Below, piece after piece: positions 1,591-39,797 of a stretch of DNA of 43,864 nucleotides. Source of the stretch: a virus (taxonomy: Duplodnaviria > Heunggongvirae > Uroviricota > Caudoviricetes); IMG/VR virus record IMGVR_UViG_2711768005_000008. The stretch is one strand, 5' to 3'. Within the stretch, counting starts at the first letter, position 1. The number at the start of each line of letters is the position of its first letter. The notes beneath the pieces were generated by a model. The model was not told the DNA's origin. It searched no databases and saw only the letters and a program-made list of their open reading frames with translations. Position numbers and translations under genes: made by a program.

Positions 1591-1821
1591 ATGGCGAGAA
1601 ATGAAGTTAAGCCTGATTGGCATCCTCAAAGAATTTTGGGGGAAGTCAGAGCCAGAGAAGGAAGCATGAGGGCGCTGGCCCGTAAAGCTGGCGTGGGTCA
1701 GAACAATCTGTACAACGCGGTATACCGCCATGTTCCCAAGTATGAGGGGATTATCGCGGAATGCCTGGGGGTGCCGCCCGAGGAGATTTGGCCCAGCCGC
1801 TACATTCGTAAGGTCGCGTAA
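1591..1821 (+). CDS. ner: Ner-like DNA-binding protein
   Basis: 76 aa; ...DWH...LSALAR.AGV....L.NA..RH.PK.E.IIA..L...PEEIWPSRY aligns with Mu Ner; first gene of the early operon. Confidence 0.8.
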   Translation: MARNEVKPDWHPQRILGEVRAREGSMRALARKAGVGQNNLYNAVYRHVPKYEGIIAECLGVPPEEIWPSRYIRKVA

Positions 1822-1823
1822 TT

Positions 1824-3911
1824 ATGTTTGCTTCAGTTAAAGAACTGGTTGGATTACCGGGGATGCCGGGAACGGAGCAAGGCGTTCGCTATTCAATCAG
1901 GAAGTATGCAACCAGCGAAACCAGCAGACGCCGCAAGAAAGGCGCTAAAGGTTTTGAATACAGCATTGACTGTTTACCTGAAGTGACACAGCAGGCATTA
2001 CGCGAACGTTATGCCCTGCAACTGATGACGCAAAAAGCCGATGAATCACCGGCTCCGGTGGTGACAAAGGCCAGACGCTCGTCTGCCGTGGTTGATGCGG
2101 TGGAGGCATATCGCGGATCACCACAACTGATGGTCGAACGCCTCAATGCCCTGACTGAAAACCAGCGCCAGGTGGCAGACGCACGCATTGCGATCGTCAG
2201 TGAGGTGCTGAAATTCACGCAACAACCCGGTTTCAGCTGCGCTAAAGCTATCCGGTTCCTCGTTAACAGCCTGGCACGATCACAACTGGACGAGCGCATT
2301 GTGGCAATGGTTGAGACGGCGAACGCCAAAAAGGGAAACAGCCGCGCGTTGAGTGAAATCACGCTGAAACGCTGGATTGCGGCCTTTAACAAGGCACAGA
2401 ACGCCGCTGAACGCCTGCTTTTACTGGCACCGGGTAAACGCCAGGAAATAAAAGCCGAAGATATTAACTGGCTGCCCGAATTTCTGGCGCAGTATCGCCA
2501 GTCAAACGGCCGACCAATGACCGAGGCTTACGAGGATTTTGTTGCTGAATGGCAGCACCGGCACGCTGATGAGCCTTATATGCTCGATATCATGCCCTCT
2601 TATGACACCATTCGCCGCGCAATGAAGAAACTGCCGGAAGTGGTGAAACAAAAAGGCCGGGTAACTGGCAGTGAATACCGTCAGCTTGAGGGATTCACGC
2701 GCCGCGACTGGTCCAGAATGCCGGTGAATTATGTCTGGATTGGTGACGGTCACGGCATGAAGCTGAAATGCGCGCACCCGGTTCACGGGCGGCCATTCGC
2801 ACCGGAAGTGACCTTTGTTATCGACGGTGGCACGCGCTTTGTGGTGGGCTGGAGCCTTGACCTGGCTGAAAATGTTTTCGCCGTAGCCGGTGCCATACAG
2901 CACGGTATTCGCCATCATGGCAAACCGTTTCTGTATTACTCGGATAATGGCTCCGGGGAAACCGCCGACGTCCTGGATAAGGAGATTGTGGGGATACTGC
3001 CACGACTGGGGATTAATCACCCGACAGGGATTGCCGGTAATCCGCAGGGACGGGGCATTATCGAACGGCTTAACCGCACATTACCGATGCGCATAGCCCG
3101 TAAATACCGCACCTATTTCGGGAAAGGAGCAGATCGCGAGACGTTACGTAAAACCAACCGCGATTTACGCTCGGCATTCAGTGCCCTGCAACAGGGCAAA
3201 CGGCTGAACGCCCGGCAGCAGTCAGCGATGCGTGATTTACCGTCCTGGTCTGAACTGATTGATGCCATTCGTGACGGTGTTGAGTGGTACAACAACCGGC
3301 CGCACGATGAATTACCCATGAAGCCGAACGGTAAACATTACAGCCCGGCGGAGTTCAGAAAAAAACGCCTGGCGGAAGAGGACACGGAAATTGAATGGCT
3401 GTCCGATGTTGAACTGCGGGATATGTTCCGGCCGATGGTGGAGCGCCCTGTAAGACGCTGTGAAATACGCTGGCTGAATAATATTTACTACGCGCCCGAG
3501 CTGCGTGACGAGCATGGCCGTAAGGTACTTATCAGCTATGACATTCATGATGCCGAACGAATTACCGTGCGCCGCCCGGATGGCAGCGTGATTTGCGAGG
3601 CGGTATGGGACGGCAATAAACGCGAAGCCTTCCCTGTCAGCGCGGAATACTACAAACAGCAGCAGCGCCTTAAAGGCATGCGTAAACGCGCAGAGGAAAA
3701 AATCCGTGATGCCGAGGATGAGGTTGTCAACGTGCTGGAGCACAAGCCGCAGGAGCCCTGGCTGGAAAACATATACCGCCCTGTGGGTAATACGGTGACC
3801 GTTCAGCAACCGGTCGCTGACGATGAACCTGATGAAGAATACGAGCGTAATTTCCAGCGGGGATTGCAACTGCTCGAAGCGAAATTAAAAGAAAGTGATC
3901 CGCTGGCCTGA
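1824..3911 (+). CDS. A: Mu-type DDE transposase A
   Basis: 695 aa, follows ner; catalytic-core-like region VWIGDGHGMKLKC...FVIDGGTRFVVGW...YYSDNGSGE. Confidence 0.85.
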   Translation: MFASVKELVGLPGMPGTEQGVRYSIRKYATSETSRRRKKGAKGFEYSIDCLPEVTQQALRERYALQLMTQKADESPAPVVTKARRSSAVVDAVEAYRGSPQLMVERLNALTENQRQVADARIAIVSEVLKFTQQPGFSCAKAIRFLVNSLARSQLDERIVAMVETANAKKGNSRALSEITLKRWIAAFNKAQNAAERLLLLAPGKRQEIKAEDINWLPEFLAQYRQSNGRPMTEAYEDFVAEWQHRHADEPYMLDIMPSYDTIRRAMKKLPEVVKQKGRVTGSEYRQLEGFTRRDWSRMPVNYVWIGDGHGMKLKCAHPVHGRPFAPEVTFVIDGGTRFVVGWSLDLAENVFAVAGAIQHGIRHHGKPFLYYSDNGSGETADVLDKEIVGILPRLGINHPTGIAGNPQGRGIIERLNRTLPMRIARKYRTYFGKGADRETLRKTNRDLRSAFSALQQGKRLNARQQSAMRDLPSWSELIDAIRDGVEWYNNRPHDELPMKPNGKHYSPAEFRKKRLAEEDTEIEWLSDVELRDMFRPMVERPVRRCEIRWLNNIYYAPELRDEHGRKVLISYDIHDAERITVRRPDGSVICEAVWDGNKREAFPVSAEYYKQQQRLKGMRKRAEEKIRDAEDEVVNVLEHKPQEPWLENIYRPVGNTVTVQQPVADDEPDEEYERNFQRGLQLLEAKLKESDPLA

Positions 3912-3984: not shown

Positions 3985-4926
3985 GTGAATAATATGACCG
4001 ATATTAACGATGTAATCAAGACCATTGATGAACTTATTGATGGCGGCGTACTGACGCAGTATGCCATCGCCAGAGAGGCGGGAATTTCCGACGGCACATT
4101 ATCGGCTTTCCGTAAGGGAAAATATAAAGGCGATAACGCTGCTGTGGCTGCTTCCCTGCGCTCCTGGTATGAGAACTGGAATAAACAAAGCGCACTGCCG
4201 GAACCGCCGCAGTTTGTGGAAACTCAGACAGTCCAGGAGCTGCGCGCACTGTTTCAGGCGGTTCGCCTGATGGGCTGTATTAACGTTATTGTGGGCGTAC
4301 CGGGTGTGGGTAAAACGGCCACTGCCCGTAATTACTGCCAGGAGCAACCAAACACCTGGATGATCACCCTGTCACCCGCGCACTCCAGCGTCACGGAGTG
4401 TCTGCTGGAGCTGGCCGATGCGCTGGGGATTGATTACACCCGCGCGAACAAAGGGGCATTATCCCGCGCCATCCGCCGTCGCCTGATGGGAACGCGTGGA
4501 CTGGTGATTGTGGATGAGGCGGATCATCTTGGTATTGACGGTCTGGAGCAACTCCGGGCAATTCAGGACGCCACGGGGATCGGGATGGTGCTTATTGGTA
4601 ACCCGCGCGGATTGTTTAAAGGTGGACGCCGCGCCTTTGATGATTTATCGCGCCTGTTCAGCCGTCTTGCCCGTACAAAACAACTTCGCAAGGCCAAAAA
4701 GGCGGATGTGCTGGCCATTGCCATGGCGTGGGGGATCAGTGGTGAGGCCGAGCTGGCCGTCATGCAGGCTATCGCTGAAAAGCCGGGAGCGTTACGCGTT
4801 CTGACACATACGCTTAACCAGGCGTGGCTCACCGCCAGCGGTGAAGGCGCGGCGCTGACAGAAAAACATATTAATGCGGCCTTTAAAGAGGTTTATACCA
4901 ACCCTGAATTACTCTCACAGGTGTGA
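3985..4926 (+). CDS. B: Transposition ATPase B (AAA+ target-DNA activator)
   Basis: 313 aa; Walker A VGVPGVGKT, Walker B VIVDEADHL; directly follows A. Confidence 0.85.
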   Translation: MNNMTDINDVIKTIDELIDGGVLTQYAIAREAGISDGTLSAFRKGKYKGDNAAVAASLRSWYENWNKQSALPEPPQFVETQTVQELRALFQAVRLMGCINVIVGVPGVGKTATARNYCQEQPNTWMITLSPAHSSVTECLLELADALGIDYTRANKGALSRAIRRRLMGTRGLVIVDEADHLGIDGLEQLRAIQDATGIGMVLIGNPRGLFKGGRRAFDDLSRLFSRLARTKQLRKAKKADVLAIAMAWGISGEAELAVMQAIAEKPGALRVLTHTLNQAWLTASGEGAALTEKHINAAFKEVYTNPELLSQV

Positions 4927-13501: not shown

Positions 13502-15165
13502 TGAACAAAGCCAGAGAAACGTCGCCTTCACTGATGCAAATGACGCCTCCCCGCAAAATTGATCTGTCAGGTGAAAAAGCCCTGCTGGGCGTGGATGTGC
13601 CGGACAGCCTTGATTTGCCCGGTGATATGCCGGTGTTTCTGGATTATCAGGCCCGCTGGTTTGCAGATGAAAGTCAGGTCTGCATCGCGGAGAAATCCCG
13701 CCGCACCGGTCTTACCTGGGCGGAAGCCGGGCGTAACGTCATTACTGCTGCAAAACCGAAGCGTCGTGGTGGCCGCAATGTGTTTTATGTGGGATCAAAG
13801 CAGGAGATGGCGCTGGAATATATTTCTGCCTGCGCGCTGTTCTCCCGTGCCTTTAACCAGCTGGCAGATGCTGATGTGTATGAGCAGACATTCTGGGATC
13901 GGGATAAAAAAGAAGAAATTTTGACCTACATGATCCGCTTTCCGAACAGTGGATTCAAAATTCAGGCATTGTCTTCCCGTCCGTCAAACCTGCGCGGCCT
14001 TCAGGGGGATGTGGTGATTGATGAAGCCGCGTTCCACGAGTCACTGGATGAGCTTCTCAAGGCGGCAATGGCGCTCACTATGTGGGGCGCGCGCGTGCGT
14101 ATTATCTCCACGCATAACGGCGTCGATAATCTGTTTAATCAGTACATTCAGGAAGCCCGCGAGGGGCGCAAGGATTACAGCGTCCACCGCATAACCCTGG
14201 ATGATGCCATTGCGGACGGGCTGTACCGTCGTATCTGTTACGTCACCGATCAGGAATGGTCACCGGAAAGCGAGCAGAAATGGCGTGATGATCTCTACAA
14301 AAACGCCCCGACCCGTGAGGATGCCGACGAGGAATACGGCTGTATCCCGAAAAAATCCGGCGGTGCCTATATCCCCCACGCGCTTATTGAAATGGCGATG
14401 ATCCGCGACATCCCGATTCTGACGTTTGAAGCCCCGGACAACTTCATCAGCCGTGCCGCATGGCTGCGTGAATCGGAAGTTTTAACCTGGTGTGAAGAAC
14501 ATTTAAAACCGCTTTTAGAGAAATTAAATCCCCGTTCCCGCTTCAGCTTCGGGGAAGACTTTGCCCGCACCGGTGACCTGTCCTGCTTTGTGCTGCTGGA
14601 AATCACCGAATCCCTGGCAAAGCGCGAGGTGTTTCGCGTGGAGCTGCGCAACCTGCCGTATGCCCAGCAGGAACAGGTGATGATGTACATCCTGACCCGC
14701 GTTCCGGCGCTGGTCGGTGCGGCGTTCGACGCCACCGGTAACGGCGGCTATCTGGCAGAGGCCGCACTGCTGGCCTTTGGCCCGGACATCATCGACTGCG
14801 TGATGTTGTCGCCGAAGTGGTACGGCGAGTGGATGCCAAAACTGAAAGCCGAGTTTGAAGATCAGAATATCCTCGTCGCCCGCCATCAGACCACGCTTGA
14901 TGATTTGCGCCATGTGAAGGTAGTGAATGGTATCCCGCAAATCGACAAGGGGCGCACGAAGGACCAGAACGCAACGGCTGCGAACGCCCGCCGCCATGGT
15001 GATTTTGCCGTGGCGCTCTGTATGGCAAACCGGGCGTCATACATGGAGGGCTTCATCCTGGATGAATCAGCCTGTCAGGCGCTACAGGAGCGGTCGCGGG
15101 CAATGGAGGGCGGTTATCGTGATGACGATGAGGCATATCATGAATTTGATCGGGGGGGCTGGTAG
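13498..15165 (+). CDS. Terminase large subunit (Mu gp28-like)
   Basis: 555 aa, position between gp27 and portal, acidic nuclease-like motifs; call rests mainly on synteny. Confidence 0.75.
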   Translation: MMNKARETSPSLMQMTPPRKIDLSGEKALLGVDVPDSLDLPGDMPVFLDYQARWFADESQVCIAEKSRRTGLTWAEAGRNVITAAKPKRRGGRNVFYVGSKQEMALEYISACALFSRAFNQLADADVYEQTFWDRDKKEEILTYMIRFPNSGFKIQALSSRPSNLRGLQGDVVIDEAAFHESLDELLKAAMALTMWGARVRIISTHNGVDNLFNQYIQEAREGRKDYSVHRITLDDAIADGLYRRICYVTDQEWSPESEQKWRDDLYKNAPTREDADEEYGCIPKKSGGAYIPHALIEMAMIRDIPILTFEAPDNFISRAAWLRESEVLTWCEEHLKPLLEKLNPRSRFSFGEDFARTGDLSCFVLLEITESLAKREVFRVELRNLPYAQQEQVMMYILTRVPALVGAAFDATGNGGYLAEAALLAFGPDIIDCVMLSPKWYGEWMPKLKAEFEDQNILVARHQTTLDDLRHVKVVNGIPQIDKGRTKDQNATAANARRHGDFAVALCMANRASYMEGFILDESACQALQERSRAMEGGYRDDDEAYHEFDRGGW

Positions 15166-16754
15166 TGGGACGCATCATTGATACTGACGGAAAACCTTTC
15201 TCCTTTGACCCGGAGATGCAGAGTGCCGCGCTGGATATTCCGCAGATTGCCAGCCGTTATATTGAACATCCGGCTTCGGGTATCACCCCGAACCGGGCGG
15301 CGCAGTGCCTTCGCGGGGCTGAACGTGGCGATCTGATTGCCCAGTCCGATCTGGCCGCTGATATTGAAGAAAAGGACACCCACCTTTTTGCGGAGCTGGG
15401 CAAGCGACGTCTTGCCATTCAGGGGGTGCCATGGAGTATTGAGCCGCCACCGAACGCCAGCGCGAATGAGAAAAAGGACGCGGAAATGCTCGACGAATAT
15501 CTGCATTCCGCAGACTGGTTTGATGCCATGCTGTTTGACGCCACGGATGCCATCCTGAAGGGCTATTCCTGCATGGAAATTGAGCACGGGATGCTCGGTA
15601 AAATGCACATCATCCGCGCCATCCGCTGGCGTGACAGCGGGCATTTCTGCCTTAACCCGGATGATTTGAGCGAACTGCGGCTGCGTGACGGCAGCCATGC
15701 CGGGGTGGCGTTTCAGCCCTTTGGCTGGATAGTGCATCAGTCGCGTTCACGCACCGGCTACGGTGGTGCGACGGGGCTTGTCAGAACGCTTATCTGGCCG
15801 TTCATTTTCAAAAACTATTCCGTGCGCGATCTGGCGGAATTTCTGGAGGTGTACGGCCTGCCAATGAAGGTCGGGAAATACCCGTCCGGGGCAACACCGG
15901 AGCAGAAAAGTGCCCTGATGCGGGCGGTGATGGATATCGGGCGACGTACAGGCGGGATCATCCCGGCCGGGATGTCGCTGGAGTTTCAGGCGGCAGCGAA
16001 CGGTCAGGCCGATCCGTTTGAAACCATGATTTCGTGGGGTGAGCGTTCCATCTCCAAAGCAATACTCGGCGGCACGCTGACCACAGAAGCCGGAGACAAA
16101 GGCGCGCGCTCGCTGGGTGAGGTGCATAACGAGGTGCGCCGGGAAATCAGGGATTCTGATTTACGCCAGCTGGCTGCAACCCTGAACCGCGATCTGGTGT
16201 ATCCGCTGTATGCCCTGAACACCGCCCACGCCATTGATATCCGTCGCCTGCCGCGTATCTGTTTCCAGACCAAAGAACCGGGGGATATCACCAAAATAGC
16301 CAGTGCGGTGATGCAACTCAGTGCGGGGATGGATATTCCTGATCCCTGGGTACGGGATCAGACCGGTATTCCACAGCCCACGCCCGGTGAAGCCATATTC
16401 CGTGTCCGTCAGAGCAGTAATGAACCGGCCATGCCTGACAGGGAAACGCTACCGGAAAAACAGGAAAAGACAGAACAGACGGCGCTTTCAGCCCGACTGC
16501 CGGAAGCGAAAAACACGCCGCGTGATGAACTGGACGACATGGGGGACGCGGTGCCTGCCCGCCGCTTACAGGAGGCCATCGATCCGGTGCTGGAGCCGGT
16601 CATTGATGTCATCAGAACGCGGGGGCTGGCGGAGGCACTGGCAGACCTGCCTGCCCTTTACCGTGAAATGGATGATTCCCGCCTGATGACGCTGCTCAGT
16701 GATGCCATGTTTGCTGCGGAAATGAAGGGGATGCTGGATGGCTCAGGGGATTGA
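15165..16754 (+). CDS. Portal protein (Mu gp29/H-like)
   Basis: 529 aa, follows the terminase; synteny. Confidence 0.75.
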   Translation: MGRIIDTDGKPFSFDPEMQSAALDIPQIASRYIEHPASGITPNRAAQCLRGAERGDLIAQSDLAADIEEKDTHLFAELGKRRLAIQGVPWSIEPPPNASANEKKDAEMLDEYLHSADWFDAMLFDATDAILKGYSCMEIEHGMLGKMHIIRAIRWRDSGHFCLNPDDLSELRLRDGSHAGVAFQPFGWIVHQSRSRTGYGGATGLVRTLIWPFIFKNYSVRDLAEFLEVYGLPMKVGKYPSGATPEQKSALMRAVMDIGRRTGGIIPAGMSLEFQAAANGQADPFETMISWGERSISKAILGGTLTTEAGDKGARSLGEVHNEVRREIRDSDLRQLAATLNRDLVYPLYALNTAHAIDIRRLPRICFQTKEPGDITKIASAVMQLSAGMDIPDPWVRDQTGIPQPTPGEAIFRVRQSSNEPAMPDRETLPEKQEKTEQTALSARLPEAKNTPRDELDDMGDAVPARRLQEAIDPVLEPVIDVIRTRGLAEALADLPALYREMDDSRLMTLLSDAMFAAEMKGMLDGSGD

Positions 16755-18069
16755 TTTAGGTTATGCCGCCACGCTTCCCTCAAAAGAGACGGTGGCATAC
16801 TTCCGCGCCAAAGGGGCGCATATCAGCTGGAACTGGTTCGAAACAGACGCGGATGTTCATGCCCGCTCATTCACGGCAGCAAAAACGGCACGGCTGGATG
16901 TGGTAACCACATTACAGGCCGAAGTGCAGCGGGCCATTGATGAGGGGATTTCACAGAAAGAATTTATCCGCACACTGACGCCACGCCTGCAAAAGCTGGG
17001 ATGGTGGGGAAAGCAGATTGTGGTGGACAGCGACGGTAACGCGGAAGAAGTGCAGCAGGGCAGTCCCCGTCGTCTGGCGCTGATTTACAACGTGAACACC
17101 CGTGTGGCTTACAATGCCGGGCGTTACACGCAGATGATGAACAACACGGACACGCATCCGTTCTGGCAGTATGTGGCGGTCATGGACAGCCGTACCCGCC
17201 CGTCGCATTCCGCCCTTAACGGTCTGGTATTCCGCTATGACGATCCGTTCTGGAAAACACACTACCCGCCCAATGGCTGGAACTGCCGCTGCCGTGTGCG
17301 GCCATTGTCTCAGGCCCGTCTGGATGCAATGGGGTTATCCGTTTCATCCGGTGAGGATCATCTCTCCACCCGCAATGTTGAGGCTGGCGTGGATAAACAG
17401 ACCGGAGAAGTCAGAGAAATGCCGGTGACCACATATTCAGATGGCGCCAGAACCATGACACCGGATGTGGGCTGGTCATATAACCCCGGCTCGGCAGCGT
17501 TCGGCACAGACCAGGCGCTGATCCGCAAACTGATCGAGGTGAAAAGCCCGGCGTTACGGGAAATGGTGGTTCAGGAGATGAACAACAGCCCGGAGCGGCA
17601 GCTGGCGTTCCGCATCTGGGCAAAAAACATCATGCAGACCCGGCGAGGTGGTAACGATATCCGCACGCTGGGCTTTATGACTGAAAGCATTGCGCAGGCA
17701 GTGGAAAGCCGGACGGGAACGCCACCGGCCCGCCTGCTGGCGATGAGCGGTAAAAATGTGCTCCATGCGGACAGTGTGAAACATCAGAATGACGGCATCG
17801 CTCTGACGCCGGAGGACTTCGGGCGCTTACCGGCAATGCTGGCAAGGCCAAAAGCGGTACTGTGGGACAAACGGCACAACAATCTGATGTATATCGTGGA
17901 AAATCAGGATGGCAGTGTGCAGATTGCCGTTAATGCACCGTACAGTCTGAAACGTCAGCCCGACAAACTGGATGTGATTGTGAATGCTTACCGGGTTATC
18001 AATATGGATAAGCTGAAATCGGATATCCGGGGCGGAATGCTTGAGGTGCTGGAAGGACAAATTGATTAA
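16738..18069 (+). CDS. Head morphogenesis protein (Mu F / gp30-like)
   Basis: 443 aa; FWQYVAVMDSRTRPSHSALNGLVF...NGWNCRCRVRP, the characteristic F-family motif. Confidence 0.8.
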   Translation: MAQGIDLGYAATLPSKETVAYFRAKGAHISWNWFETDADVHARSFTAAKTARLDVVTTLQAEVQRAIDEGISQKEFIRTLTPRLQKLGWWGKQIVVDSDGNAEEVQQGSPRRLALIYNVNTRVAYNAGRYTQMMNNTDTHPFWQYVAVMDSRTRPSHSALNGLVFRYDDPFWKTHYPPNGWNCRCRVRPLSQARLDAMGLSVSSGEDHLSTRNVEAGVDKQTGEVREMPVTTYSDGARTMTPDVGWSYNPGSAAFGTDQALIRKLIEVKSPALREMVVQEMNNSPERQLAFRIWAKNIMQTRRGGNDIRTLGFMTESIAQAVESRTGTPPARLLAMSGKNVLHADSVKHQNDGIALTPEDFGRLPAMLARPKAVLWDKRHNNLMYIVENQDGSVQIAVNAPYSLKRQPDKLDVIVNAYRVINMDKLKSDIRGGMLEVLEGQID

Positions 18070-18190
18070 CGGTCAGTGGCGGGGGTCGAACCCGCATACA
18101 TGATCCACCCGGAGGCAGGCACCGACTTTACCAGTTAAGCGTACACTGACCGCCTGTTTATTTTATATTCATCCTTTATGCGGAGGCAAT

Positions 18191-18664
18191 ATGTCATCCA
18201 TTGATGCAGCTGTCGTTGTTGACGTTACGCGTCTCCAGCGAGTGTTTGCCCGGCTTCAGTTTGTGGGCGGCGGAAAAGACCTGGCCCGCAGTGTGGCGGC
18301 GAGTCTTCTGTCATCGTCAGAAATGGCGTTTGAGCAGGAAAAAGAGCCGGATGGTGAACGCTGGCATGACTGGTCAGATCCTTACCGTGAGTGGCGTACC
18401 CGTAAGGGATACACGCCCGGCAAAATCCTGACGCTGAACGGCGATCTGGCCCGCCGCCTGACCACGGATTATGGCGATACCTGGGCGCTGATTGGATCAA
18501 ATGAACCTTATGCAGCCATTCATCAGTGGGGTGGCCTGCCTGGTATGCCACCGGGACCGGCGGCCATTGGCGCACGTCCGTATATGGGCTTTGATCAGGT
18601 GGCAGAACAGGAGATCATGGACGAAATCAGAAAACGCTTTAAAAAGGCCACAGAAACGCCGTAA
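18191..18664 (+). CDS. Virion morphogenesis protein (Mu G / gp31-like)
   Basis: 157 aa, synteny after F. Confidence 0.55.
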   Translation: MSSIDAAVVVDVTRLQRVFARLQFVGGGKDLARSVAASLLSSSEMAFEQEKEPDGERWHDWSDPYREWRTRKGYTPGKILTLNGDLARRLTTDYGDTWALIGSNEPYAAIHQWGGLPGMPPGPAAIGARPYMGFDQVAEQEIMDEIRKRFKKATETP

Positions 18665-18841: not shown

Positions 18842-19975
18842 ATGAAGACAGAAAATCACCCAAAAGACGCAAATCGCCCCTCCGGTTTAGCCGTGCTTTC
18901 AGCTTCGCTGACTGCATCCGGCGACGGATGGTGTCAGTTACTGCCAGCCGGTCGGGTAAAGGCCCGTGACGGTCGCCCGGAAAAACCGACTGAAGGCTGG
19001 CTGATTAACGAATCCGCCTGTAACCGGATGAAAGCCGGGCTTTCCGCCCTGCATCAGCCGTTACTGATTGATTATGACCATCACTCCGTGAATGCGCAGA
19101 AAAACGGATTCAAGGCTATTGCTGCAGGATGGGTTAAGCCGGAAAACATCGAATGGCGTGAGGGTCAGGGGATTTTCATTAAACCTGAATGGACACCACA
19201 GGCACAAAAACATATTGATGACCGTGAATATGCCTATCTGTCTGCATATATGCATTATTTCGCTGACACCGGGGAACCCTACCTGTTGCGCATGGCTTCC
19301 CTGACGAATGATCCGGGTATTACGGGTATGAACCCTGTCGCGGCACTCAGTGCTGATGATCTCTATGTCGTTTCCCCTTCTCAGGAGCAATCCCCCATGA
19401 ATGAGCAATTACGCCAGTTGCTGACGGCGCTCGGTCTGACCGTGGCTGACGGTGACGAATTTACACCGGAACTGGGCACGGCGGCGCTGTCTGCCCTTAC
19501 CGGGATCAAAACCCGTGCGGATGCGCACGACACCCTGAAAACGCAGGTTGCCAGCCTGTCGGCAGAACTGGAAACCGCAAAAGGCACACCAACTGGCGGC
19601 ACTATTGATCTGACGAAATATGTGCCCGTTGAGACGTATAACGCCCTGCGTACCGAATATGCCGCGCTGTCGGCACAACACGGCAGCACCACGCTGGAGC
19701 AGTTGCTGGATAAGGCCGAGTCCGAAGGACGCATTTTCAAAAGCGAACGCGGATACATGGAAGGACTCGGACAACAGATTGGCGTCGCGGCACTTTCTGC
19801 ACAGCTTGACGCCCGCCAGCCGGTTGCGGCTCTGACCACTCTTCAGACCGACACCGTAACCGTGCCGGATAAAAAGACCGCCACCGCTGTGCTGTCGGCT
19901 GAAGATATCGCCGCCGCACGTCTGTTGGGTAAAACCGAAGCCGAGTTCCTGAAAATGAAAGAGGAAATGCAATAA
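18842..19975 (+). CDS. Head maturation protease / scaffold (Mu I / gp32-like; possible internal start for scaffold at about 19397)
   Basis: 377 aa immediately before the major capsid gene; Ala/Leu-rich C-terminal half. Confidence 0.65.
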   Translation: MKTENHPKDANRPSGLAVLSASLTASGDGWCQLLPAGRVKARDGRPEKPTEGWLINESACNRMKAGLSALHQPLLIDYDHHSVNAQKNGFKAIAAGWVKPENIEWREGQGIFIKPEWTPQAQKHIDDREYAYLSAYMHYFADTGEPYLLRMASLTNDPGITGMNPVAALSADDLYVVSPSQEQSPMNEQLRQLLTALGLTVADGDEFTPELGTAALSALTGIKTRADAHDTLKTQVASLSAELETAKGTPTGGTIDLTKYVPVETYNALRTEYAALSAQHGSTTLEQLLDKAESEGRIFKSERGYMEGLGQQIGVAALSAQLDARQPVAALTTLQTDTVTVPDKKTATAVLSAEDIAAARLLGKTEAEFLKMKEEMQ

Positions 19976-20922
19976 TGCCTACCCCGATTACACCGGCGAT
20001 GATCACCGCCCTGATGACGGGCTACCGTTCTGATTTTCAGGCCGGGATGTCCATGGCTCCGTCGCAGTACCAGAAAATTGCGATGACCGTGCCGTCCACC
20101 TCGAAATCCAACACCTACGGCTGGCTGGGGCAGTTCCCGCAGTTCCGTGAGTGGATCGGCTCCCGCGTCATCGAGAAGATGAAAGCCTATGGCTACGCCA
20201 TCGTGAACAAAACCTTTGAAGGCACCGTTGCCATTAGCCGCGATGACTTTGAAGACGACAATCTCGGCATCTACTCCCCGTTATTCCAGGAAATGGGTCG
20301 TGCCGCTGCGGCACAACCGGATGAACTGGTCTTTGCTGCACTGCGTGATGGTCTGAATGCGGCCTGCTATGACGGCCAGAACTTCTTTGATACCGAACAC
20401 CCTGTTTACCCCAAAGTGGATGGCTCCGGTGATGCACAGATGGTCAGCAATATGTTTGTGGCAAAAACCGGCTCTGTCGGTGCACAGGCGGATTACAGCG
20501 GCCCGGCCTGGTATCTGCTTGACTGCTCCCGCGCGGTAAAACCGCTGATTTATCAGGATCGCCGCAAAGCCGAACTGGTTGCCCAGACAAAAGTCGATGA
20601 AGGCCGTGCGTTTACTGATAACGAGTTTGTGTTCGGTGCTTCCGCCCGTCGCAATGTGGGCTACGGCTTCTGGCAGATGGCCTACATGATGCAGTCACCG
20701 CTGACGCTGGATGCGCTGTGGCACGGCTGGTCAGCCATGCGTGACTTTAAGGCTGACGGTGGCCGCAAACTCGGCATCAAACCCACCCATATTGTTGTCC
20801 CCACCTCGCTGGAAAAACAGGCGGTGCAGCTGCTGGAGCGCGAGCTGTTCGCAGACGGTAACGCCACAGTCTCTAACGAGATGAAGGGCAAGCTGGAGCT
20901 GGTTGTCGCGGATTATCTGTAA
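19975..20922 (+). CDS. Major head (capsid) protein (Mu T / gp34-like)
   Basis: 315 aa, synteny; start overlaps the I stop. Confidence 0.75.
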   Translation: MPTPITPAMITALMTGYRSDFQAGMSMAPSQYQKIAMTVPSTSKSNTYGWLGQFPQFREWIGSRVIEKMKAYGYAIVNKTFEGTVAISRDDFEDDNLGIYSPLFQEMGRAAAAQPDELVFAALRDGLNAACYDGQNFFDTEHPVYPKVDGSGDAQMVSNMFVAKTGSVGAQADYSGPAWYLLDCSRAVKPLIYQDRRKAELVAQTKVDEGRAFTDNEFVFGASARRNVGYGFWQMAYMMQSPLTLDALWHGWSAMRDFKADGGRKLGIKPTHIVVPTSLEKQAVQLLERELFADGNATVSNEMKGKLELVVADYL

Positions 20923-30622: not shown

Positions 30623-31704
30623 TGCCTTATCAGCCTTTACCGCTGGCACAGTTAATCACGCAGACACAGCAGGATATCAGCCAGCGCCTGCCCGGCTCGC
30701 AGCCGGGTGTGAATGAAACCACCCTGAATGCCATTGCTTACGCTCAGGCAGGGTTATCTGCTCAGGAGCATGAGCATCTGGCCTGGATTGCGCGTCAGAT
30801 CATCCCGACCGAAGCCGATGAAGCCGAACTGCTGAAACACTGTGCATTCTGGGGCGTCATGCGTAAGCCTGCCTCTCGGGGGGACGGGCCGGTTCAGCTG
30901 ATGCTGACCACGGATGCGGGGATCAAGGAAGGTGTGCTTCTCCAGCGAAGTGATGGCGTGGTTTACCGTATCACCACCTCCCTGACCGGTAAGGCCGGTA
31001 CGCTGAATGTCAGTGTGGAAGCCGAAAGTGCCGGTCGTGCGGGGAATGCCCCGGCAGGGACAAAACTGACATTTATCACACCGCAGGCGGGGATCAACCA
31101 GACGGCCACGGTGACCGGAACGGGGATCACCGGTGGTGCGGATGTGGAAACCGTGCCGGAGCTGCTTTCCCGTCTGGTTTTCCGGGTGCAGAATCCACCG
31201 TCCGGCGGCACGCAGTATGATTTTGAACGCTGGGCGCGTGAAGTGCCGGGCGTGACGCGGGCATGGTGCCGCCCGGAATGGCCGCAGGCGGGCAGCGTGG
31301 GGGTAACGTTTGTTCAGGATAATAACCCGGATATTTTCCCCGGTGACGGTGATGTTCAGCGGGTGGCGGATTATATCCGCAGTCATGATGATCCGGCGAC
31401 CGGCCAGCCTGTCGGACAGCCTCTGGGGCCGACGGTGACCGTGTTTAAACTGACCAATAAGCCGGTGCCCTTCAGCATCAGGATCATCCCGAAAACACCG
31501 GAGAATCAGGCGGCCGTAAAACAGGCGCTGACCGACCTGTTGTATAACGAATCCCGGCCCGGCGGTCTGGTTCTGCCGTCGTCTTTCTGGCGGGCGGTGG
31601 CAGGGGTGAAAAATCTGGAGGATTTTGAAGTGCGCAGTCCGCTGACGTCAGTTCAGGCGGGAGACAGTGAGCTGCTGACGGTAGGAGAAATCACATGGCT
31701 GTAA
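30622..31704 (+). CDS. Baseplate J-like protein (Mu gp47)
   Basis: 360 aa, synteny. Confidence 0.65.
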   Translation: MPYQPLPLAQLITQTQQDISQRLPGSQPGVNETTLNAIAYAQAGLSAQEHEHLAWIARQIIPTEADEAELLKHCAFWGVMRKPASRGDGPVQLMLTTDAGIKEGVLLQRSDGVVYRITTSLTGKAGTLNVSVEAESAGRAGNAPAGTKLTFITPQAGINQTATVTGTGITGGADVETVPELLSRLVFRVQNPPSGGTQYDFERWAREVPGVTRAWCRPEWPQAGSVGVTFVQDNNPDIFPGDGDVQRVADYIRSHDDPATGQPVGQPLGPTVTVFKLTNKPVPFSIRIIPKTPENQAAVKQALTDLLYNESRPGGLVLPSSFWRAVAGVKNLEDFEVRSPLTSVQAGDSELLTVGEITWL

Positions 31705-34837: not shown

Positions 34838-36892
34838 ATGTCAGACTCCAAGTGGAAAATGCTCTCCGCCATGCCCGGAGAGTTTTCAGTCAAGGTTGCC
34901 GGTGGCACGGTGGCATTTATTGAAAGCCCTTTCCGCCCTTCGGGTAATAAAGGGGGGATCACCTTCGCAGACTGCGTGATCCGCTTCAGCACGAAAGAGC
35001 CATTATGGGTAATGCCGGTATCCGGTAATCCCAGTGCAGAAATCACCAGTTCAGGCGTGACTGGCATCATTCCAATCACATCTGACGTGGCCGGAACGCT
35101 CACGCCCTCCGACTGGAATGCACCGGATAACGCCGGGCCTTCCGGTAGCACGAATGGCAGCAGTTCAGAGCCGGAATATTACTTTGTTGTCATTCTCGCG
35201 GGTCAGTCAAATGGCATGGCCTACGGCGAGGGGCTGCCGTTACCGGATTCGTTTGACCGCCCGGACCCACGCATTAAGCAACTGGCACGCCGCAGTACGG
35301 TAACGCCCAACGGTACGTCGTGTACATACAACGACATCATTCCGGCAGACCACTGCCTGCATGATGTTCAGGATATGAGCGGGATAAACCACCCGAAAGC
35401 TGATCTGGCAAAAGGCCAGTACGGGACTGTCGGTCAGGGGTTGCATATTGCCAAAAAACTGCTTCCCTATATCCCACAGAATGCCGGGATACTTCTGGTG
35501 CCCTGTTGTCGTGGCGGGTCAGCATTCACCACTGGAGCCGACGGCTCATTCAGTGAGGCCAGCGGTGCTTCCGCTGATTCTTCACGCTGGGGGGCCGGTA
35601 AACCTCTGTATCAGGACCTGGTAAGCCGCACCAAAGTCGCGCTGGCGAAAAACCCGAAAAACAAACTTCTGGCTGTGGTCTGGATGCAGGGAGAGGCAGA
35701 CCTTGCCTCAGGAAGCCAGCAGCATAATAGTTTATTCACGGCCATGGTTCAGCAGTTCAGAACTGACCTGGCTCCGCTTGCTGCGCAGTGCGTGAGTGGA
35801 AATGCCACCACGGTGCCGTGGATTTGCGGTGATACCACGTATTACTGGAAAAACGCTGGCACCGATAAATATGAGGCAGTATACGGTGGCTACAAAGGCA
35901 AGGAAGCACAGAAAATTTTCTTTGTACCGTTCCTGACGGATGAGAATGGACAGAGCACGCCAACGAATGCTCCGGCGGAAGACCCGGATATTGTGGCTGT
36001 CGGGTATTACGGTGCAGCATCCCGAACCCAGGGCAGTTTTGTTTCGACACAGCGTGACAGCCATTTCAGCTCATGGGCACGCAGGGGCGTCATTTCAGAC
36101 CGTCTGGCCTCAGCTATTATGCTCCATGCAGGGCGCACGGCTGAACTGATGCGTGGGCAGACCGTGACACCACCGGATGAGAAGCCGTCACCTGATACAC
36201 CATCAAAACCGTCCACGCCACCCGCAGACACCACGACGATGAGTACGCTATTTGCTTACCGGGCATCTGAGTCTGAAGGACGGTTGACACCACAGGGTTG
36301 GGCTGCCGGAGGTGGCAAGGCTCAAATCGTGGATGATGCCGGAGCCAGCGGGGGTAAGGCAATGAAACTGACCAAGGAAACAGGAAGAGCCCCCTGGTAC
36401 CTTGAGCATGATGCTGGTAATGGTGCGGACCTGCTGGGTAAAGGTGGTCTTGTCAGTTGTCGTTTTAAACTCGATGGCGCGCTTACGGCTAATCAGTACG
36501 CACTGGCGCTGTACTGGCCGGTTTCTGCCCTGCCGCAAGGGGTTACTCTGGAAGGAAATGCCGGTCATAACCTGCTGGCATCGTTCTACGTACAGAGCGA
36601 TGCCACAGACCTTAACGTGATGTATCACAAAGGAAACACGGCGCAGAACACGAAGCTGGGGTCATTCGGCGCATTTAATAACGAATGGCATACGCTGGGC
36701 TTCCGTTTTGCCGGTAACAACAGTATTGAGGTGACGCCGGTCATTGATGGTAAGGACGGGACACCATTCATGCTGTCGCAGTCTCCGGTCGGCACGTTTA
36801 CGGCAGACAAGTTGCGCGTGACCGATATCACTAAAAATGCGACTTACCCGGTACTGATTGACAGTATCGTGGTGGAAGTGAATAACGCGTAA
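34838..36892 (+). CDS. SASA/SGNH-hydrolase-family carbohydrate esterase (sialate O-acetylesterase-like, NanS-p-like) with N- and C-terminal extra domains
   Basis: GQSNGMAYG nucleophile motif (residue ~125), VVWMQGEADL block, later DSH; 684 aa; sits between gin and com/mom, where Mu has no gene. Confidence 0.6.
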   Translation: MSDSKWKMLSAMPGEFSVKVAGGTVAFIESPFRPSGNKGGITFADCVIRFSTKEPLWVMPVSGNPSAEITSSGVTGIIPITSDVAGTLTPSDWNAPDNAGPSGSTNGSSSEPEYYFVVILAGQSNGMAYGEGLPLPDSFDRPDPRIKQLARRSTVTPNGTSCTYNDIIPADHCLHDVQDMSGINHPKADLAKGQYGTVGQGLHIAKKLLPYIPQNAGILLVPCCRGGSAFTTGADGSFSEASGASADSSRWGAGKPLYQDLVSRTKVALAKNPKNKLLAVVWMQGEADLASGSQQHNSLFTAMVQQFRTDLAPLAAQCVSGNATTVPWICGDTTYYWKNAGTDKYEAVYGGYKGKEAQKIFFVPFLTDENGQSTPTNAPAEDPDIVAVGYYGAASRTQGSFVSTQRDSHFSSWARRGVISDRLASAIMLHAGRTAELMRGQTVTPPDEKPSPDTPSKPSTPPADTTTMSTLFAYRASESEGRLTPQGWAAGGGKAQIVDDAGASGGKAMKLTKETGRAPWYLEHDAGNGADLLGKGGLVSCRFKLDGALTANQYALALYWPVSALPQGVTLEGNAGHNLLASFYVQSDATDLNVMYHKGNTAQNTKLGSFGAFNNEWHTLGFRFAGNNSIEVTPVIDGKDGTPFMLSQSPVGTFTADKLRVTDITKNATYPVLIDSIVVEVNNA

Positions 36893-38179: not shown

Positions 38180-38226
38180 GATTGAGTGATAAAGATATCA
38201 ACAACAAAGCAGGAGGTTATGCGGCC

Positions 38227-38427
38227 ATGTATCGAAACATACGGTGCCGACATTGTAACAAGCTACTGGCACGAGCCAGCTTCAGTTATCTGGAAGTTAA
38301 ATGTCCGCGCTGTAAAACCCTCAATCAAATCACATCTCAGAGCGCCACAGAGCACCCCACATACACAAGGAAATCCTGTCGTGGGGAACAGAAAGCAAGT
38401 TACATCCCGTATCATCAGCACGCCTGA
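38227..38427 (+). CDS. com: Com-like zinc-finger translational activator of mom
   Basis: [10 protein letters not shown]...EVKCPRCK with the same C4 arrangement as Mu Com; overlaps the mom 5' end. Confidence 0.7.
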
Positions 38428-39118
38428 ACTTATTCACTATAACGACAATATCGTCGGTTATGGCTCCCGTGAGTTACGGGTTGAGACAATAAGTTGCTGG
38501 CTGGCCCGGCTGGTCGTCGTCAATAAACATTACAGCCATCGTTTCGTAAATAATTCCTACCTTCATCTGGGCATATTTTCAGAACGGGAGCTGGTTGGCG
38601 TAATGCAATGGGGTTATGCCCTTAATCCAAACAATGGTGCACGCGTCGTAACTGGCACGCAGAACCGCGAATATATGGAGCTTAACCGGTTATGGCTGCA
38701 TGACTGTATGCCGAGAAACTCCGAATCAAGGGCAATCAGTTACGCGCTCAAACTAATCAGACAACTTTATCCGCAGGTGCAGTGGGTTCAGTCGTTTGCA
38801 GATGAGCGTTGTGGCTGTCTTGGTGTCGTGTACCAGGCAAGCAATTTTGATTATGTAGGCAGTCATGAAACAACATTCTATGAACTTGATGGCGAGTGGT
38901 ATCACGAGATTTGCAAGAATGCAATCAAACGAGGAGGACAGCGAGGTGAACATCTGCGGGCTAATATCGACAGAGCCAGTGTTCATAAATTCCGTCAGTT
39001 TCGTTACATCCGGTTTCTGGACAAGAGAGCCAGAAAACGCCTTAACACAAAGCTATTCAAAGTCCAGCCTTACCCAAAACCACAAACAGTTAAAACTGGT
39101 TTGAAAGAGAGTGAATGA
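38381..39118 (+). CDS. mom: Mom-like DNA modification protein (start codon uncertain; frame open from 38186, GTG 38381 proposed)
   Basis: Last gene before the right end, overlapped by com, preceded by the GATC cluster. Confidence 0.6.
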
Positions 39119-39163
39119 ACGCTTAAAAACTCATTCTAAAACTCAAAAGAAAAGCGCCGATTT

Positions 39164-39229
39164 AGTATCAAATAAGTTGCGTATCGGCGTTTTTCAGCGG
39201 TATCAAATGAAATGCAAATCGGTATCAAA
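39164..39229 (-). repeat. Right-end (attR-like) repeats: inverted copies of the left-end motif (AGTATCAAA 39164-39172; CGGTATCAAA 39198-39207 and 39220-39229)
   Basis: Reverse complements of TTTGATACCG clustered within 65 bp after mom. Confidence 0.5.
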
Positions 39230-39336
39230 AAAATCGCCGCGCTATAGACAGCCTAAGCGGCTGCTGACCTCCCTGACCATGCTGTAAATCTCTTTATCCT
39301 GGTTGTCACAGAATAAGCCCGGTAAAATACGGGCTT

Positions 39337-39795: not shown

Positions 39796-39797
39796 CA

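What the first reader, a model, noticed from the sequence alone, without database searches (positions are those of the whole stretch)
18070..18150. tRNA-like structured element between head genes F and G
On the minus strand the 120-bp F-G intergenic region contains a 7-bp acceptor-like stem (GTCAGTG/CACTGAC), a D-loop-like TGGTA, and a canonical T-arm (GCGGG-TTCGACC-CCCGC). I could not fold a convincing anticodon arm, and no CCA is encoded. It could be a degenerate or unusual tRNA, a tRNA-derived fragment, or a structured RNA or recombination site.
Basis: seen in the sequence. Interest (0 to 1): 0.45.

Follow-up and report, generated by a model that had tools for sequence, protein, structure and literature searches.

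The report
Anticodon-less tRNA-shaped RNA beside phage RNase
A Mu-like prophage carries a small, separately transcribed RNA shaped like a tRNA with its anticodon loop replaced by a capped stem, and it occurs only next to head-protein genes that keep a predicted RNase active site, so it may be an RNA antidote or partner for a virion-delivered toxin.

Summary
Minus strand 18153-18069 encodes an ~85-nt tRNA-like RNA with an 8-9 bp acceptor stem, D arm and T arm. A capped stem replaces the anticodon loop, and no CCA is encoded. ARAGORN misses it, Rfam tRNA scores it borderline, and PGAP labels identical copies 'tRNA-OTHER'.

It is a real RNA. Across 46 distinct homologues, 16 of 18 base pairs show compensatory changes. 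G·U pairs occur only on the minus strand. A conserved -10 box places the transcription start at the base of the stem.

The new finding concerns its neighbour. The C-terminal domain of gene F (MuF_C) is a predicted colicin-D-like BECR RNase. Among 74 distinct F C-termini, the RNA is present exactly where the motif H.DS.[KR]H is kept (39). It is absent where the motif is lost (33), in at least three independent lineages including phage Mu. The RNA also occurs without F, as 2-3-copy arrays in satellite-like islands. No intact motif-bearing F lacks it.

Best reading, inferred and untested: an uncleavable tRNA pseudo-substrate that acts as RNA immunity to the virion-delivered F RNase. Distant Mu-like phages carry a 'skipping-rope' RNA in the same slot.

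The parts
18069..18153 (-). tRNA-like RNA gene (model R1 match; the Rfam tRNA match is 18150-18071)
   Evidence: Model R1 scores 99.2 bits. Rfam RF00005 scores 31.0 bits, E=1.2e-4. Identical copies are annotated tRNA-OTHER by PGAP.
18144..18152 (-). 5' strand of the extended acceptor stem (positions -2 to 7: CGGTCAGTG)
   Evidence: It pairs with 18078-18070. All 9 pairs show compensatory changes across 46 sequences.
18125..18140 (-). D arm GCTT-AACTGGTA-AAGT with an invariant GG; an extra C (18141) follows U8-A9
   Evidence: Alignments A2 and A6. All four D-stem pairs show at least one two-sided change; the three inner pairs are always paired, while the outermost (10:25) is unpaired in 22 of 46 sequences.
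18100..18124 (-). Central arm replacing the anticodon arm. My manual pairing (sequence) is GUG/CAU, a small internal loop, then CUGCC/GGUGG capped by tetraloop UCCG (cap hairpin 18118-18105). RNAfold gives a slightly different register for the distal stem.
   Evidence: Every family member folds this segment into one hairpin, mostly tetraloop-capped (UCCG, UUCG, UCAG, UCAA, GUAA, AAAC, GUAC) or with a 10-14 nt loop. None has a 7-nt anticodon loop.
18096..18099 (-). 4-nt linker GUAU in the variable-loop position
   Evidence: Conserved as GUAU, UUAU or GUAC across the family.
18079..18095 (-). T arm GCGGG-TTCGACC-CCCGC
   Evidence: 99.6% of cells are paired and 3 of 5 pairs show compensatory changes. 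TTCG is invariant in the 14-sequence alignment A2; a few distant members have TTCA.
18070..18078 (-). 3' strand of the acceptor stem (CACTGACCG). It abuts the F stop codon (18067-18069). No CCA is encoded.
18160..18165 (-). Predicted -10 box TAAAAT for the RNA
   Evidence: Promoter scan. TAAAAT, TATACT or TATAAT lies 5-9 nt upstream of the RNA in nearly all copies although the spacer sequence diverges. The Edwardsiella copy L005 has only a weak match, and the downstream copies in satellite arrays have no promoter of their own.
18184..18189 (-). Predicted -35 box TTGCCT, the complement of the G ribosome-binding region GGAGGCAA
   Evidence: The same GGAGGCAA is present in a phage without the RNA (L070), so its role as a -35 box is confounded with the RBS.
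16738..18069 (+). Gene F (MuF head protein): Phage_Mu_F domain plus C-terminal MuF_C domain
   Evidence: Pfam PF04233 (E=4.8e-30) and PF18819 (aa 347-429, 29.8 bits against a cutoff of 27.6). Iyer et al. 2017 (PMC5512222) class MuF-C as a PBECR, a BECR-fold RNase domain.
17764..17784 (+). Codons for HADSVKH (F residues 343-349), the putative RNase active-site motif
   Evidence: The motif is kept in all 39 RNA-bearing F variants and lost in all 33 RNA-less ones.
18191..18664 (+). Gene G (virion morphogenesis, PF05069), the downstream neighbour
   Evidence: In phages lacking the RNA, F and G overlap or abut (gap -14 to +9 nt).

Best explanation
The F-G gap holds a stand-alone gene for an ~85-nt RNA that is transcribed antisense to the late operon from its own sigma-70-type promoter. 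The RNA folds like a tRNA, with an 8-9 bp acceptor stem and D and T arms that keep the elbow nucleotides. Its anticodon loop is replaced by an extended, capped stem, so it cannot decode.

It is the genetic partner of the C-terminal MuF-C domain of the upstream head protein F. That domain is a predicted colicin-D-like (BECR-fold) RNase. MuF proteins are predicted in the literature to be packaged in the virion and delivered with the DNA.

The mechanism I think most likely is that the RNA is an uncleavable tRNA pseudo-substrate. It would bind the F RNase domain and neutralise it, acting as an RNA immunity factor. Because it is expressed from the prophage independently of late transcription, it would protect lysogens (kin) from F delivered by incoming phages of the same family. 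It might also protect the producing cell.

Shown here: the sequence, the structure with its covariation, the promoter-like element, and the strict co-occurrence and co-loss with the F motif.

Inferred only: expression, RNase activity of F, binding, and inhibition.
For: RNA reality
- In 46 distinct homologues, 94.8% of cells are paired and 16 of 18 pairs have two-sided changes. Controls with partners slid by one to three columns give at most 10 such pairs, and 0 of 500 shuffles reach the observed values.
- In the MAFFT alignment A2, G·U pairs appear only on the minus strand: 17 cells against no A·C cells. The larger A6 also shows many G·U cells on this strand.
- U8, A14, G18-G19 and TTCG are invariant in the 14-sequence alignment A2.
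- The RNA is 95-98% identical between phages whose flanking F and G DNA is only 68-71% identical and whose promoter spacer is 58-64% identical.

Own promoter
- The scan finds TTGCCT-18-TAAAAT.
- A -10 box is kept 5-9 nt upstream in nearly all lineages.

No anticodon
- The central arm is always a hairpin with varying tetraloop caps or larger loops.

Link to F
- F carries MuF_C, PF18819.
- The literature classes MuF-C as a PBECR RNase with a colicin-D-like active site, inactive in phage Mu and active in orthologues (PMC5512222).
- Characterised colicin-like BECR proteins mostly cut tRNAs (bioRxiv 10.64898/2026.08.28.747851).
- Among 74 distinct MuF-C sequences, motif and RNA are both present in 39 and both absent in 33. 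The only real discordant case is a locus whose F 3' end is disrupted.
- RNA-less, motif-less phages have close RNA-bearing, motif-bearing sisters: L228 and L219 (F 89.9% identical), L246 and L218 (84.4%), L247 and L199 (77.2%). The Mu group and L070 are further cases.
- The motif and the RNA lie about 285 nt apart, and the sequence between them is retained, so the losses are separate events.

Position
[quoted passage not shown] Here the gap holds no ORF of 40 aa or more on either strand.

Asymmetry typical of toxin and antidote
- The RNA occurs without F in satellite-like island arrays (L037, L077, L100, L104, L108, L110) and near mor in L114. L095 keeps two copies beside what looks like only an F C-terminal remnant.
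- No intact motif-bearing F lacks the RNA.

Cassette behaviour
- Window and L039/L040 have near-identical F up to about residue 365. They then diverge in the last ~78 residues together with the RNA type, while G is again 93-96% identical.

Generality
- A different four-way-junction RNA (skipping-rope, RF02924) sits in the same slot and orientation after a distant MuF-C subgroup.
Against: - No expression data were available; the promoter is a consensus match only.
- RNase activity of MuF-C is a published prediction, not a demonstration.
- Co-loss shows a functional partnership but does not say whether the RNA is an inhibitor, a substrate or a cofactor.
- The same RNA type serves MuF-C variants only ~75% identical, so there is no tight one-to-one co-diversification.
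- About half of the E. coli copies carry an A58C change in the T loop, which suggests relaxed constraint there.
- Antisense placement means late transcription could occlude the RNA promoter at the time F is made.
- The recurrent association with mor genes in satellite-like islands is unexplained.
- The A6 alignment was fitted to the model, which inflates pair counts somewhat. The MAFFT alignment A2 gives the same picture.
Confidence: 0.45

Rival explanations
1. The RNA is a functional partner of MuF-C but not an inhibitor. It might be a substrate that F processes, a cofactor or guide, or an RNA that F binds and carries into the capsid.
For: The co-occurrence and co-loss fit any obligatory partnership equally well. 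Iyer et al. suggested an RNA-binding role for the inactive Mu domain.
Against: A cofactor for a late protein would be expected in the late operon's sense orientation. Instead the gene is antisense with its own promoter. The RNA persists in satellite-like islands and prophage remnants that have no F, while active-looking F never occurs without the RNA. That asymmetry is typical of an antidote.
Confidence: 0.2
2. It is a trans-acting tRNA mimic or decoy aimed at some other tRNA-binding factor, such as a host or rival-phage tRNase, a tRNA-modifying toxin or a defence system, with no mechanistic tie to F.
For: The tRNA elbow and acceptor features are kept while the anticodon is removed. The RNA occurs as arrays in satellite-like islands away from F.
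Against: This does not explain why the RNA gene disappears each time the F motif is lost, in at least three independent lineages. It also does not explain why an unrelated RNA occupies the same slot after another MuF-C subgroup.
Confidence: 0.13
3. It is a cis-antisense regulator. Transcription from the promoter over the G ribosome-binding site, or pairing with the F-G late mRNA, tunes F and G expression, and the tRNA shape only stabilises the RNA.
For: The gene is antisense to the late operon, and its -35 box overlaps the G RBS.
Against: The same RNA works in non-antisense contexts with its own promoter, namely the satellite arrays and L114. Invariance of tRNA tertiary-contact nucleotides is not needed for antisense pairing. 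A search for trans targets in the phage's own genome gave nothing that was conserved.
Confidence: 0.08
4. It is a decaying cargo tRNA gene (a pseudogene) with no present function.
For: ARAGORN is negative. Most copies fall below the Rfam gathering score. The A58C variant is common.
Against: Compensatory changes keep about 95% of pairs intact across Escherichia, Citrobacter and Edwardsiella genomes and diverse metagenomic phages. The RNA is far better conserved than its flanks. A promoter is retained.
Confidence: 0.04
5. It is a genuine aminoacylatable tRNA-like molecule, for example a His-like one with G-1:C73, used in translation or in a non-ribosomal transfer reaction.
For: The window copy has G-1:C73, and the acceptor and T arms are canonical. 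Any role for the E. coli CCA-adding enzyme in adding CCA after transcription is general knowledge and was not tested.
Against: There is no anticodon loop. The -1:73 pair varies freely (GC 19, AU 12, UA 9, GU 2), and -2:74 is usually paired, so there is no conserved identity set and no free NCCA end.
Confidence: 0.03

Closest known systems
Canonical bacterial and phage tRNAs (Rfam RF00005)
   Same: Cloverleaf topology. The acceptor, D and T arms carry U8, A14, G18-G19 and TTCG. The Rfam tRNA model aligns these three arms.
   Different: No anticodon loop. The acceptor helix is 8-9 bp and starts at the predicted transcription start. There is an extra nucleotide after position 9 and no CCA. ARAGORN does not call it. 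No host tRNA is similar even at blastn E<=10.
Immunity genes of MuF polymorphic toxins (Jamet et al. 2017, PMC5576092) and colicin D with ImmD
   Same: It sits immediately downstream of a MuF gene whose C-terminus is a predicted BECR RNase. It disappears when the toxin motif is lost. The C-terminal cassette and the downstream element are exchanged together. Orphan copies exist elsewhere.
   Different: Known immunity factors are small proteins. Here the slot holds a structured RNA on the opposite strand.
Type III toxin-antitoxin RNAs (ToxI and relatives; from my own knowledge, not tested here)
   Same: The proposed logic is the same: an RNA that directly neutralises an endoribonuclease as a pseudo-substrate.
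   Different: ToxI-type antitoxins are tandem repeats upstream of the toxin in the same operon, and the toxin processes them. This RNA is a single tRNA-shaped unit, downstream, antisense and with its own promoter. The toxin fold also differs.
Skipping-rope RNA motif (Rfam RF02924; Weinberg et al. 2017, PMC5737381)
   Same: It has four-way-junction topology with an 8-bp closing stem. In L264, L260 and L261 it lies right after the MuF gene on the opposite strand, preceded by a -10 box. It was reported to associate with a nearby protein gene.
   Different: There is no sequence or model similarity to the window RNA: no RF02924 hit in the window. It lacks the tRNA D-loop and T-loop signatures. Its function is unknown.
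tRNA-like non-decoding RNAs such as the tmRNA tRNA-like domain, YrlA/Y RNA tRNA-like modules, mascRNA and the P1 C4 / P4 CI RNAs (from my own knowledge)
   Same: They have a tRNA-like shape without decoding, and some are encoded by phages or satellites.
   Different: No Rfam hit to any of these families in the region. Their partners and roles differ.

Membership tests
tRNA (RF00005) | Acceptor stem, D arm and T arm with conserved tertiary nucleotides | tested here: met
   The Rfam alignment covers these arms. Covariation supports them. The invariant positions are listed. The acceptor helix is 8-9 bp rather than 7.
tRNA (RF00005) | Anticodon arm with a 5-bp stem and a 7-nt loop carrying an anticodon | tested here: not met
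   Rfam skips this region as a 24-nt local gap. All family members have a capped extended stem or a 10-14 nt loop instead.
tRNA (RF00005) | Recognised by standard tRNA finders and by the family threshold | tested here: inconclusive
   ARAGORN finds nothing. Rfam gives 31.0 bits against a gathering score of 29 in a 451-nt scan, but the element is not listed in the whole-window scan. Only 2 of about 20 variant copies pass. PGAP calls it tRNA-OTHER.
tRNA (RF00005) | 3' CCA end and aminoacylation | not testable with these tools
   CCA is not encoded, and position 74 is usually paired with -2. Charging cannot be assessed in silico.
MuF polymorphic toxin with immunity module | MuF N-terminal domain fused to a C-terminal toxin (RNase) domain | tested here: inconclusive
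MuF polymorphic toxin with immunity module | Immunity determinant immediately downstream, present only when the toxin is active | tested here: met
   Among 74 distinct F C-termini, 39 have both motif and RNA, 33 have neither, and there is one explained exception. The F-G gap is 97-160 nt when the RNA is present and -14 to +9 nt when it is absent. The determinant is an RNA, not the usual small ORF.
MuF polymorphic toxin with immunity module | The immunity factor neutralises the cognate toxin | not testable with these tools
   This needs co-expression or in vitro assays.
Type III toxin-antitoxin (ToxIN-like) | The antitoxin RNA is a tandem repeat array upstream of the toxin in one operon and is processed by the toxin | tested here: not met
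   In phages the RNA is single-copy, downstream of F, on the opposite strand and with its own promoter. Satellite arrays consist of non-identical units without a toxin gene.
Skipping-rope RNA (RF02924) | Match to the family covariance model | tested here: not met
   No RF02924 hit in window 17900-18350 at E<=10. The family does match in the same genomic slot in L264, at 45.6 bits.
C4/CI antisense RNAs, tmRNA tRNA-like domain, YrlA | Match to the respective Rfam models | tested here: not met
   None of them appears in the E<=10 scan of the region.

The most novel reading that the evidence does not exclude
A class of phage-encoded, anticodon-less tRNA mimics serves as RNA immunity factors (pseudo-substrate inhibitors) for BECR-fold RNase domains that Mu-like phages are predicted to deliver inside their virions on the MuF head protein. 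Lysogens and satellite-like islands would carry these RNAs, sometimes as multi-type orphan arrays, to survive toxin delivery by related phages. The orphan 'skipping-rope' RNA motif would be a second, structurally distinct solution to the same task.
Probability: 0.4. Interest if true: 0.85.

Novelty: new variant of a known kind. Interest (0 to 1): 0.72.

Why it matters
If the inference holds, four things follow.

- It would be the first case I know of (from my own knowledge) in which immunity to a polymorphic or virion-delivered RNase toxin is provided by an RNA that mimics the toxin's substrate rather than by a protein.
- It would give a function to hundreds of 'tRNA-OTHER' annotations in E. 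coli and, probably, in Salmonella relatives whose F homologues I found but did not check for the RNA. These include EHEC Mu-like prophages.
- It would give the poorly understood MuF-C domain of Mu-type head proteins a testable activity and a partner.
- It would offer a concrete hypothesis for the orphan skipping-rope motif.

It also shows that an anticodon-less tRNA scaffold can be maintained by selection.

Even if the mechanism is wrong, the strict co-inheritance of the RNA with the F motif is a solid comparative result. It makes the question directly testable with simple genetics.

Tried and rejected
- ARAGORN on the window and on related loci found nothing.
- A search for a trans target of the variable arm in the phage's own genome, using RNA duplex energies, gave a best site at window 31251-31310 (+), -45.5 kcal/mol. 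Shuffled queries reached -44.7 (0 of 25 matched the real value). The site was not recovered at the homologous position in two related prophages, so I rejected it as unconvincing.
- The small ORF ATG..TAA (11 codons) inside the RNA is not conserved in type B copies, and family lengths differ by non-multiples of 3, so I rejected it.
- A recombination or att-site role is unlikely. The island's att repeat lies elsewhere, and Mu-type phages transpose (general knowledge).
- Five literature searches for a described phage tRNA-like RNA of this kind found nothing relevant.
- PADLOC and Pfam searches on genes next to stray copies (L114, L095) were uninformative apart from Mor.
- No host tRNA resembling the RNA was found, so the mimicked tRNA species could not be named.
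- The supplement of Weinberg et al. 2017 on the gene association of skipping-rope RNAs was not available.

Full report
**1. What is in the window**

The window carries a Mu-like prophage.
- Its head genes are the portal (15165-16754), F (16738-18069), G (18191-18664), the I protease/scaffold (18842-19975) and the T major head protein (19975-20922), all on the + strand. The annotation of an identical prophage agrees.
The acceptor strands are GTCAGTG and CACTGAC. The D arm is GCTT-AACTGGTA-AAGT. The T arm is GCGGG-TTCGACC-CCCGC. There is no 7-nt anticodon loop and no CCA.

Detection by standard tools is mixed.
- ARAGORN reports only the tmRNA at 41794-42156.
- Rfam's tRNA model matches 18150-18071 at 31.0 bits (gathering score 29, E=1.2e-4). 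It aligns the acceptor, D and T arms and skips the middle as a 24-nt gap.
- In a whole-window scan at the gathering threshold the hit is not listed.
- Folding energy alone is unremarkable: z = -1.57 on the minus strand and -1.20 on the plus strand.

**2. Distribution**

- 226 of 5426 complete E. coli genomes carry the element. PGAP labels exact copies 'tRNA-OTHER'.
- About half of the E. coli copies differ by one base (A58C in the T loop) and are not annotated.
- The same gap in other Mu-like prophages holds versions that are 71-77% identical.
- Pattern and protein-anchored scans found more copies. They occur in one Citrobacter and one Edwardsiella genome, in IMG/VR contigs and in metagenomes.
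- Phage Mu itself, and some relatives, have F and G overlapping or abutting with no element.

**3. It is a structured RNA read from the minus strand**

Covariation is strong.
- On a MAFFT alignment of 14 distinct copies, 95.6% of cells pair and 9 of 18 pairs show two-sided changes. Slid controls give at most 4.
- On 46 distinct copies aligned to my covariance model, 94.8% of cells pair and 16 of 18 pairs show two-sided changes (155 cells). Slid controls give at most 10 pairs and 32 cells, and no shuffle reaches the observed values.
- That second alignment is fitted to the model, so it leans towards the structure. The MAFFT result agrees.

The helix is longer than a normal acceptor stem.
- The pair -1:73 covaries (GC 19, AU 12, UA 9, GU 2).
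- The pair -2:74 is formed in 36 of 46 sequences.

Other evidence points the same way.
- In alignment A2, G·U pairs occur in 17 cells on the minus strand, where the plus strand would have A·C mismatches.
- The nucleotides that build the tRNA elbow (U8, A14, G18-G19, TTCG) are invariant in the 14-sequence alignment.
- Between phages whose flanking F and G DNA is only 68-71% identical, the RNA is 95-98% identical while the adjacent promoter spacer is 58-64% identical.

**4. The middle arm**

- In every member, the segment between the D and T arms folds into a single hairpin. It has a proximal stem of 3-6 bp, usually a small internal loop, and a distal stem.
- The distal stem is capped by a tetraloop (UCCG, UUCG, UCAG, UCAA, GUAA, AAAC or GUAC) or, in some members, by a 10-14 nt loop. 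A 4-5 nt linker (GUAU or UUAU) follows.
- The cap sequence varies freely, so the loop is neither an anticodon nor a conserved pairing seed.
- The design looks like a tRNA whose anticodon loop has been deliberately closed.

**5. It has its own promoter**

- A sigma-70-type match, TTGCCT-18-TAAAAT, lies at 18189-18160 on the minus strand.
- The -10 box (TAAAAT, TATACT or TATAAT) is kept 5-9 nt upstream of the RNA in nearly all lineages although the spacer diverges.
- The predicted start therefore falls at the base of the extended stem.
- The -35 box coincides with the complement of the G ribosome-binding site. The same sequence exists in a phage without the RNA, so only the -10 box counts as independent evidence.
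- No terminator is seen.
- Expression itself is untested.

**6. The link to gene F**

F carries Phage_Mu_F plus MuF_C (PF18819, residues 347-429).
- Iyer et al. 2017 (PMC5512222) describe MuF-C as a PBECR domain. [quoted passage not shown]
- They state that it is inactive in phage Mu gp30 and probably active in orthologues.
- Characterised colicin-like BECR proteins mostly cut tRNAs.
- Polyvalent and MuF-fused effector proteins are predicted in the literature to be packaged in the virion and injected.

I compared F C-termini from 74 distinct phage loci.
- All 39 with the RNA keep the motif H.DS.[KR]H. In the window this is HADSVKH, residues 343-349, nt 17764-17784.
- All 33 without the RNA lack it.
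- The single real exception (L135) has a disrupted F 3' end. One further case (L255) is a partial protein that cannot be scored.

The RNA-less phages fall into several groups with close RNA-bearing sisters.
- L228 against L219: F is 89.9% identical.
- L246/248/250/251/253 against L218/L222: about 84% identical.
- L247/249/256 against L199: 77% identical.
- The Mu group and L070 are further cases.
- That makes at least three, and probably five, independent joint losses.

Two details argue against a trivial explanation.
- The motif lies about 285 nt from the RNA, and the sequence between them is retained, so each lineage needed two separate events.
- Where the RNA is present the F-G gap is 97-160 nt. 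Where it is absent the gap is -14 to +9 nt.

My own structural check of the domain was weak.
- The AlphaFold model has pLDDT 76.8.
- Foldseek is negative.

**7. Copies without F**

- 8-kb satellite-like islands end with arrays of two or three different RNA types driven by one promoter. These islands carry an integrase, ash/icd-like genes, a RepA helicase or a toprim/DUF927 protein, SSB, PerC and Mor. They are bounded by their own att repeats.
- Another copy lies near a mor gene in L114.
- A small contig (L095) keeps two copies beside what looks like only an F C-terminal fragment.
- So the RNA can exist without F, but an intact motif-bearing F was never seen without the RNA. This asymmetry is characteristic of antidote and toxin pairs.
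- Between the window and two close relatives, the last ~78 residues of F and the RNA type change together, while the rest of F and G stay nearly identical. That resembles cassette exchange in polymorphic toxin systems.
- In MuF toxin systems the slot just downstream of the toxin gene is where immunity genes sit (PMC5576092).

**8. A second RNA in the same slot**

- In three distant Mu-like contigs whose MuF-C has a variant motif (GHFRSARH in L260 and L264, AHFRSDRH in L261), the position right after F, on the opposite strand and behind a GATAAT box, holds a skipping-rope RNA.
- Rfam RF02924 scores 45.6 bits there against a gathering score of 36.7. The three copies show compensatory changes.
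- Skipping-rope is an orphan motif. It was reported to associate with a nearby protein gene (PMC5737381), but I could not read the supplement.
- Its topology, an 8-bp closing stem with three hairpins, resembles a cloverleaf.

**9. Interpretation**

- Shown: a conserved, separately promoted, tRNA-shaped RNA without an anticodon, co-inherited with the putative active site of the adjacent MuF-C domain.
- Inferred: the RNA binds that RNase as an uncleavable tRNA look-alike and neutralises it, protecting lysogens and cells carrying the satellite-like islands from F delivered by related phages.
- The antisense orientation with an independent promoter fits expression in the lysogen.
- I give the partnership about 0.65-0.75 and the specific immunity mechanism about 0.45.
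- Alternatives are listed with their tests: substrate or cofactor, an unrelated decoy, a cis-antisense regulator, a pseudogene, and a chargeable tRNA.

**10. Comparison with known systems and verdict**

- It is not a member of the tRNA family in the functional sense, because the anticodon arm test fails.
- It is not a ToxI-type antitoxin, because the organisation tests fail.
- It does not match any other Rfam family.
- It works, if I am right, like an immunity gene of a MuF polymorphic toxin, but it is made of RNA.
- I found no description of it in the searchable literature.
- I rate it a new variant of a known kind, with interest 0.72.

Noticed in passing
L264 1705-1797 (-); L260 ~1800-1900 (-); L261 ~1700-1800 (-): A skipping-rope RNA (Rfam RF02924, 45.6 bits) lies directly after the MuF gene on the opposite strand in three distant Mu-like contigs. 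It is preceded by a GATAAT box, and the copies show compensatory changes. This may give the orphan motif a genomic partner.
   Followed up: partly
L037 1505-1706 (-); L077 6136-6327; L110 1129-1435; also L100, L104, L108: About 8-kb satellite-like islands (integrase, ash, icd-like, DUF4222, RepA helicase or toprim/DUF927, SSB, PerC, Mor) end with arrays of 2-3 different tRNA-like RNAs behind a single promoter. The first copy has a split acceptor helix: 5 bp, an internal loop, then 4-5 bp.
   Followed up: partly
L114 319-398 (+) and 2815-3192 (-); L037 1985-2392 (-): Stray copies of the RNA recur near Mor-family activator genes in contexts with no MuF gene in the stretch seen. The reason for the mor association is unexplained.
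   Followed up: partly
window 18084 (position 58 of the T loop); E. coli hits H119-H139: 82 E. coli records carry a one-base variant (TTCGCCC instead of TTCGACC, that is A58C). PGAP does not annotate it as tRNA-OTHER. F keeps its motif in one such contig (L116, 99% identical over the MuF-C region).
   Followed up: partly
window 31251-31310 (+): A GC-rich stretch inside the baseplate J-like gene is unusually complementary to the RNA's central arm (-45.5 kcal/mol, beyond 25 of 25 shuffles). It is not conserved in related prophages.
   Followed up: yes
window 38186-43864: The Mu-like prophage ends with a Mom-family gene (38186-39118). Next come a truncated lambdoid tail-fibre gene (39849-41021) and a DUF4376 gene, then ssrA tmRNA (41794-42156, -) and smpB (42371-42853, -). 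This suggests the Mu-like phage transposed into a prophage remnant integrated at ssrA. The best phage-database matches are Stx phages carrying an inserted Mu-like phage.
   Followed up: partly
L267 1521-1682: A distant MuF locus has a 160-nt F-G gap with a GGTTCGAATCC T-arm-like hairpin on the minus strand. Neither my model nor ARAGORN nor Rfam calls it. It may be a more divergent member of the family.
   Followed up: partly
L040 1-2000 and 2081 onwards: In E. coli JNEC-KY203 the Mu-like prophage is inserted inside a satellite-like island (DUF4222 and icd-like genes at its left flank). That genome has four places matching the element.
   Followed up: no
L001 ~4300-4370 (-): A run of GTGAAA-type direct repeats lies between mor and the promoter of the satellite RNA array. 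It could be a protein-binding site.
   Followed up: no
window 34838-36892 (+): A 684-aa accessory protein with a SASA (sialate O-acetylesterase-like) domain and a DUF6645 domain sits after the invertase at the right end of the prophage.
   Followed up: no
L254, L257-L259, L262, L263, L265, L266: A further distant MuF-C group has a different motif (LH[ML].R[SD].K). Some of these loci have F abutting or overlapping the next predicted ORF, and others have 370-380-nt gaps of unknown content. I did not determine whether these domains are active or have another partner.
   Followed up: no
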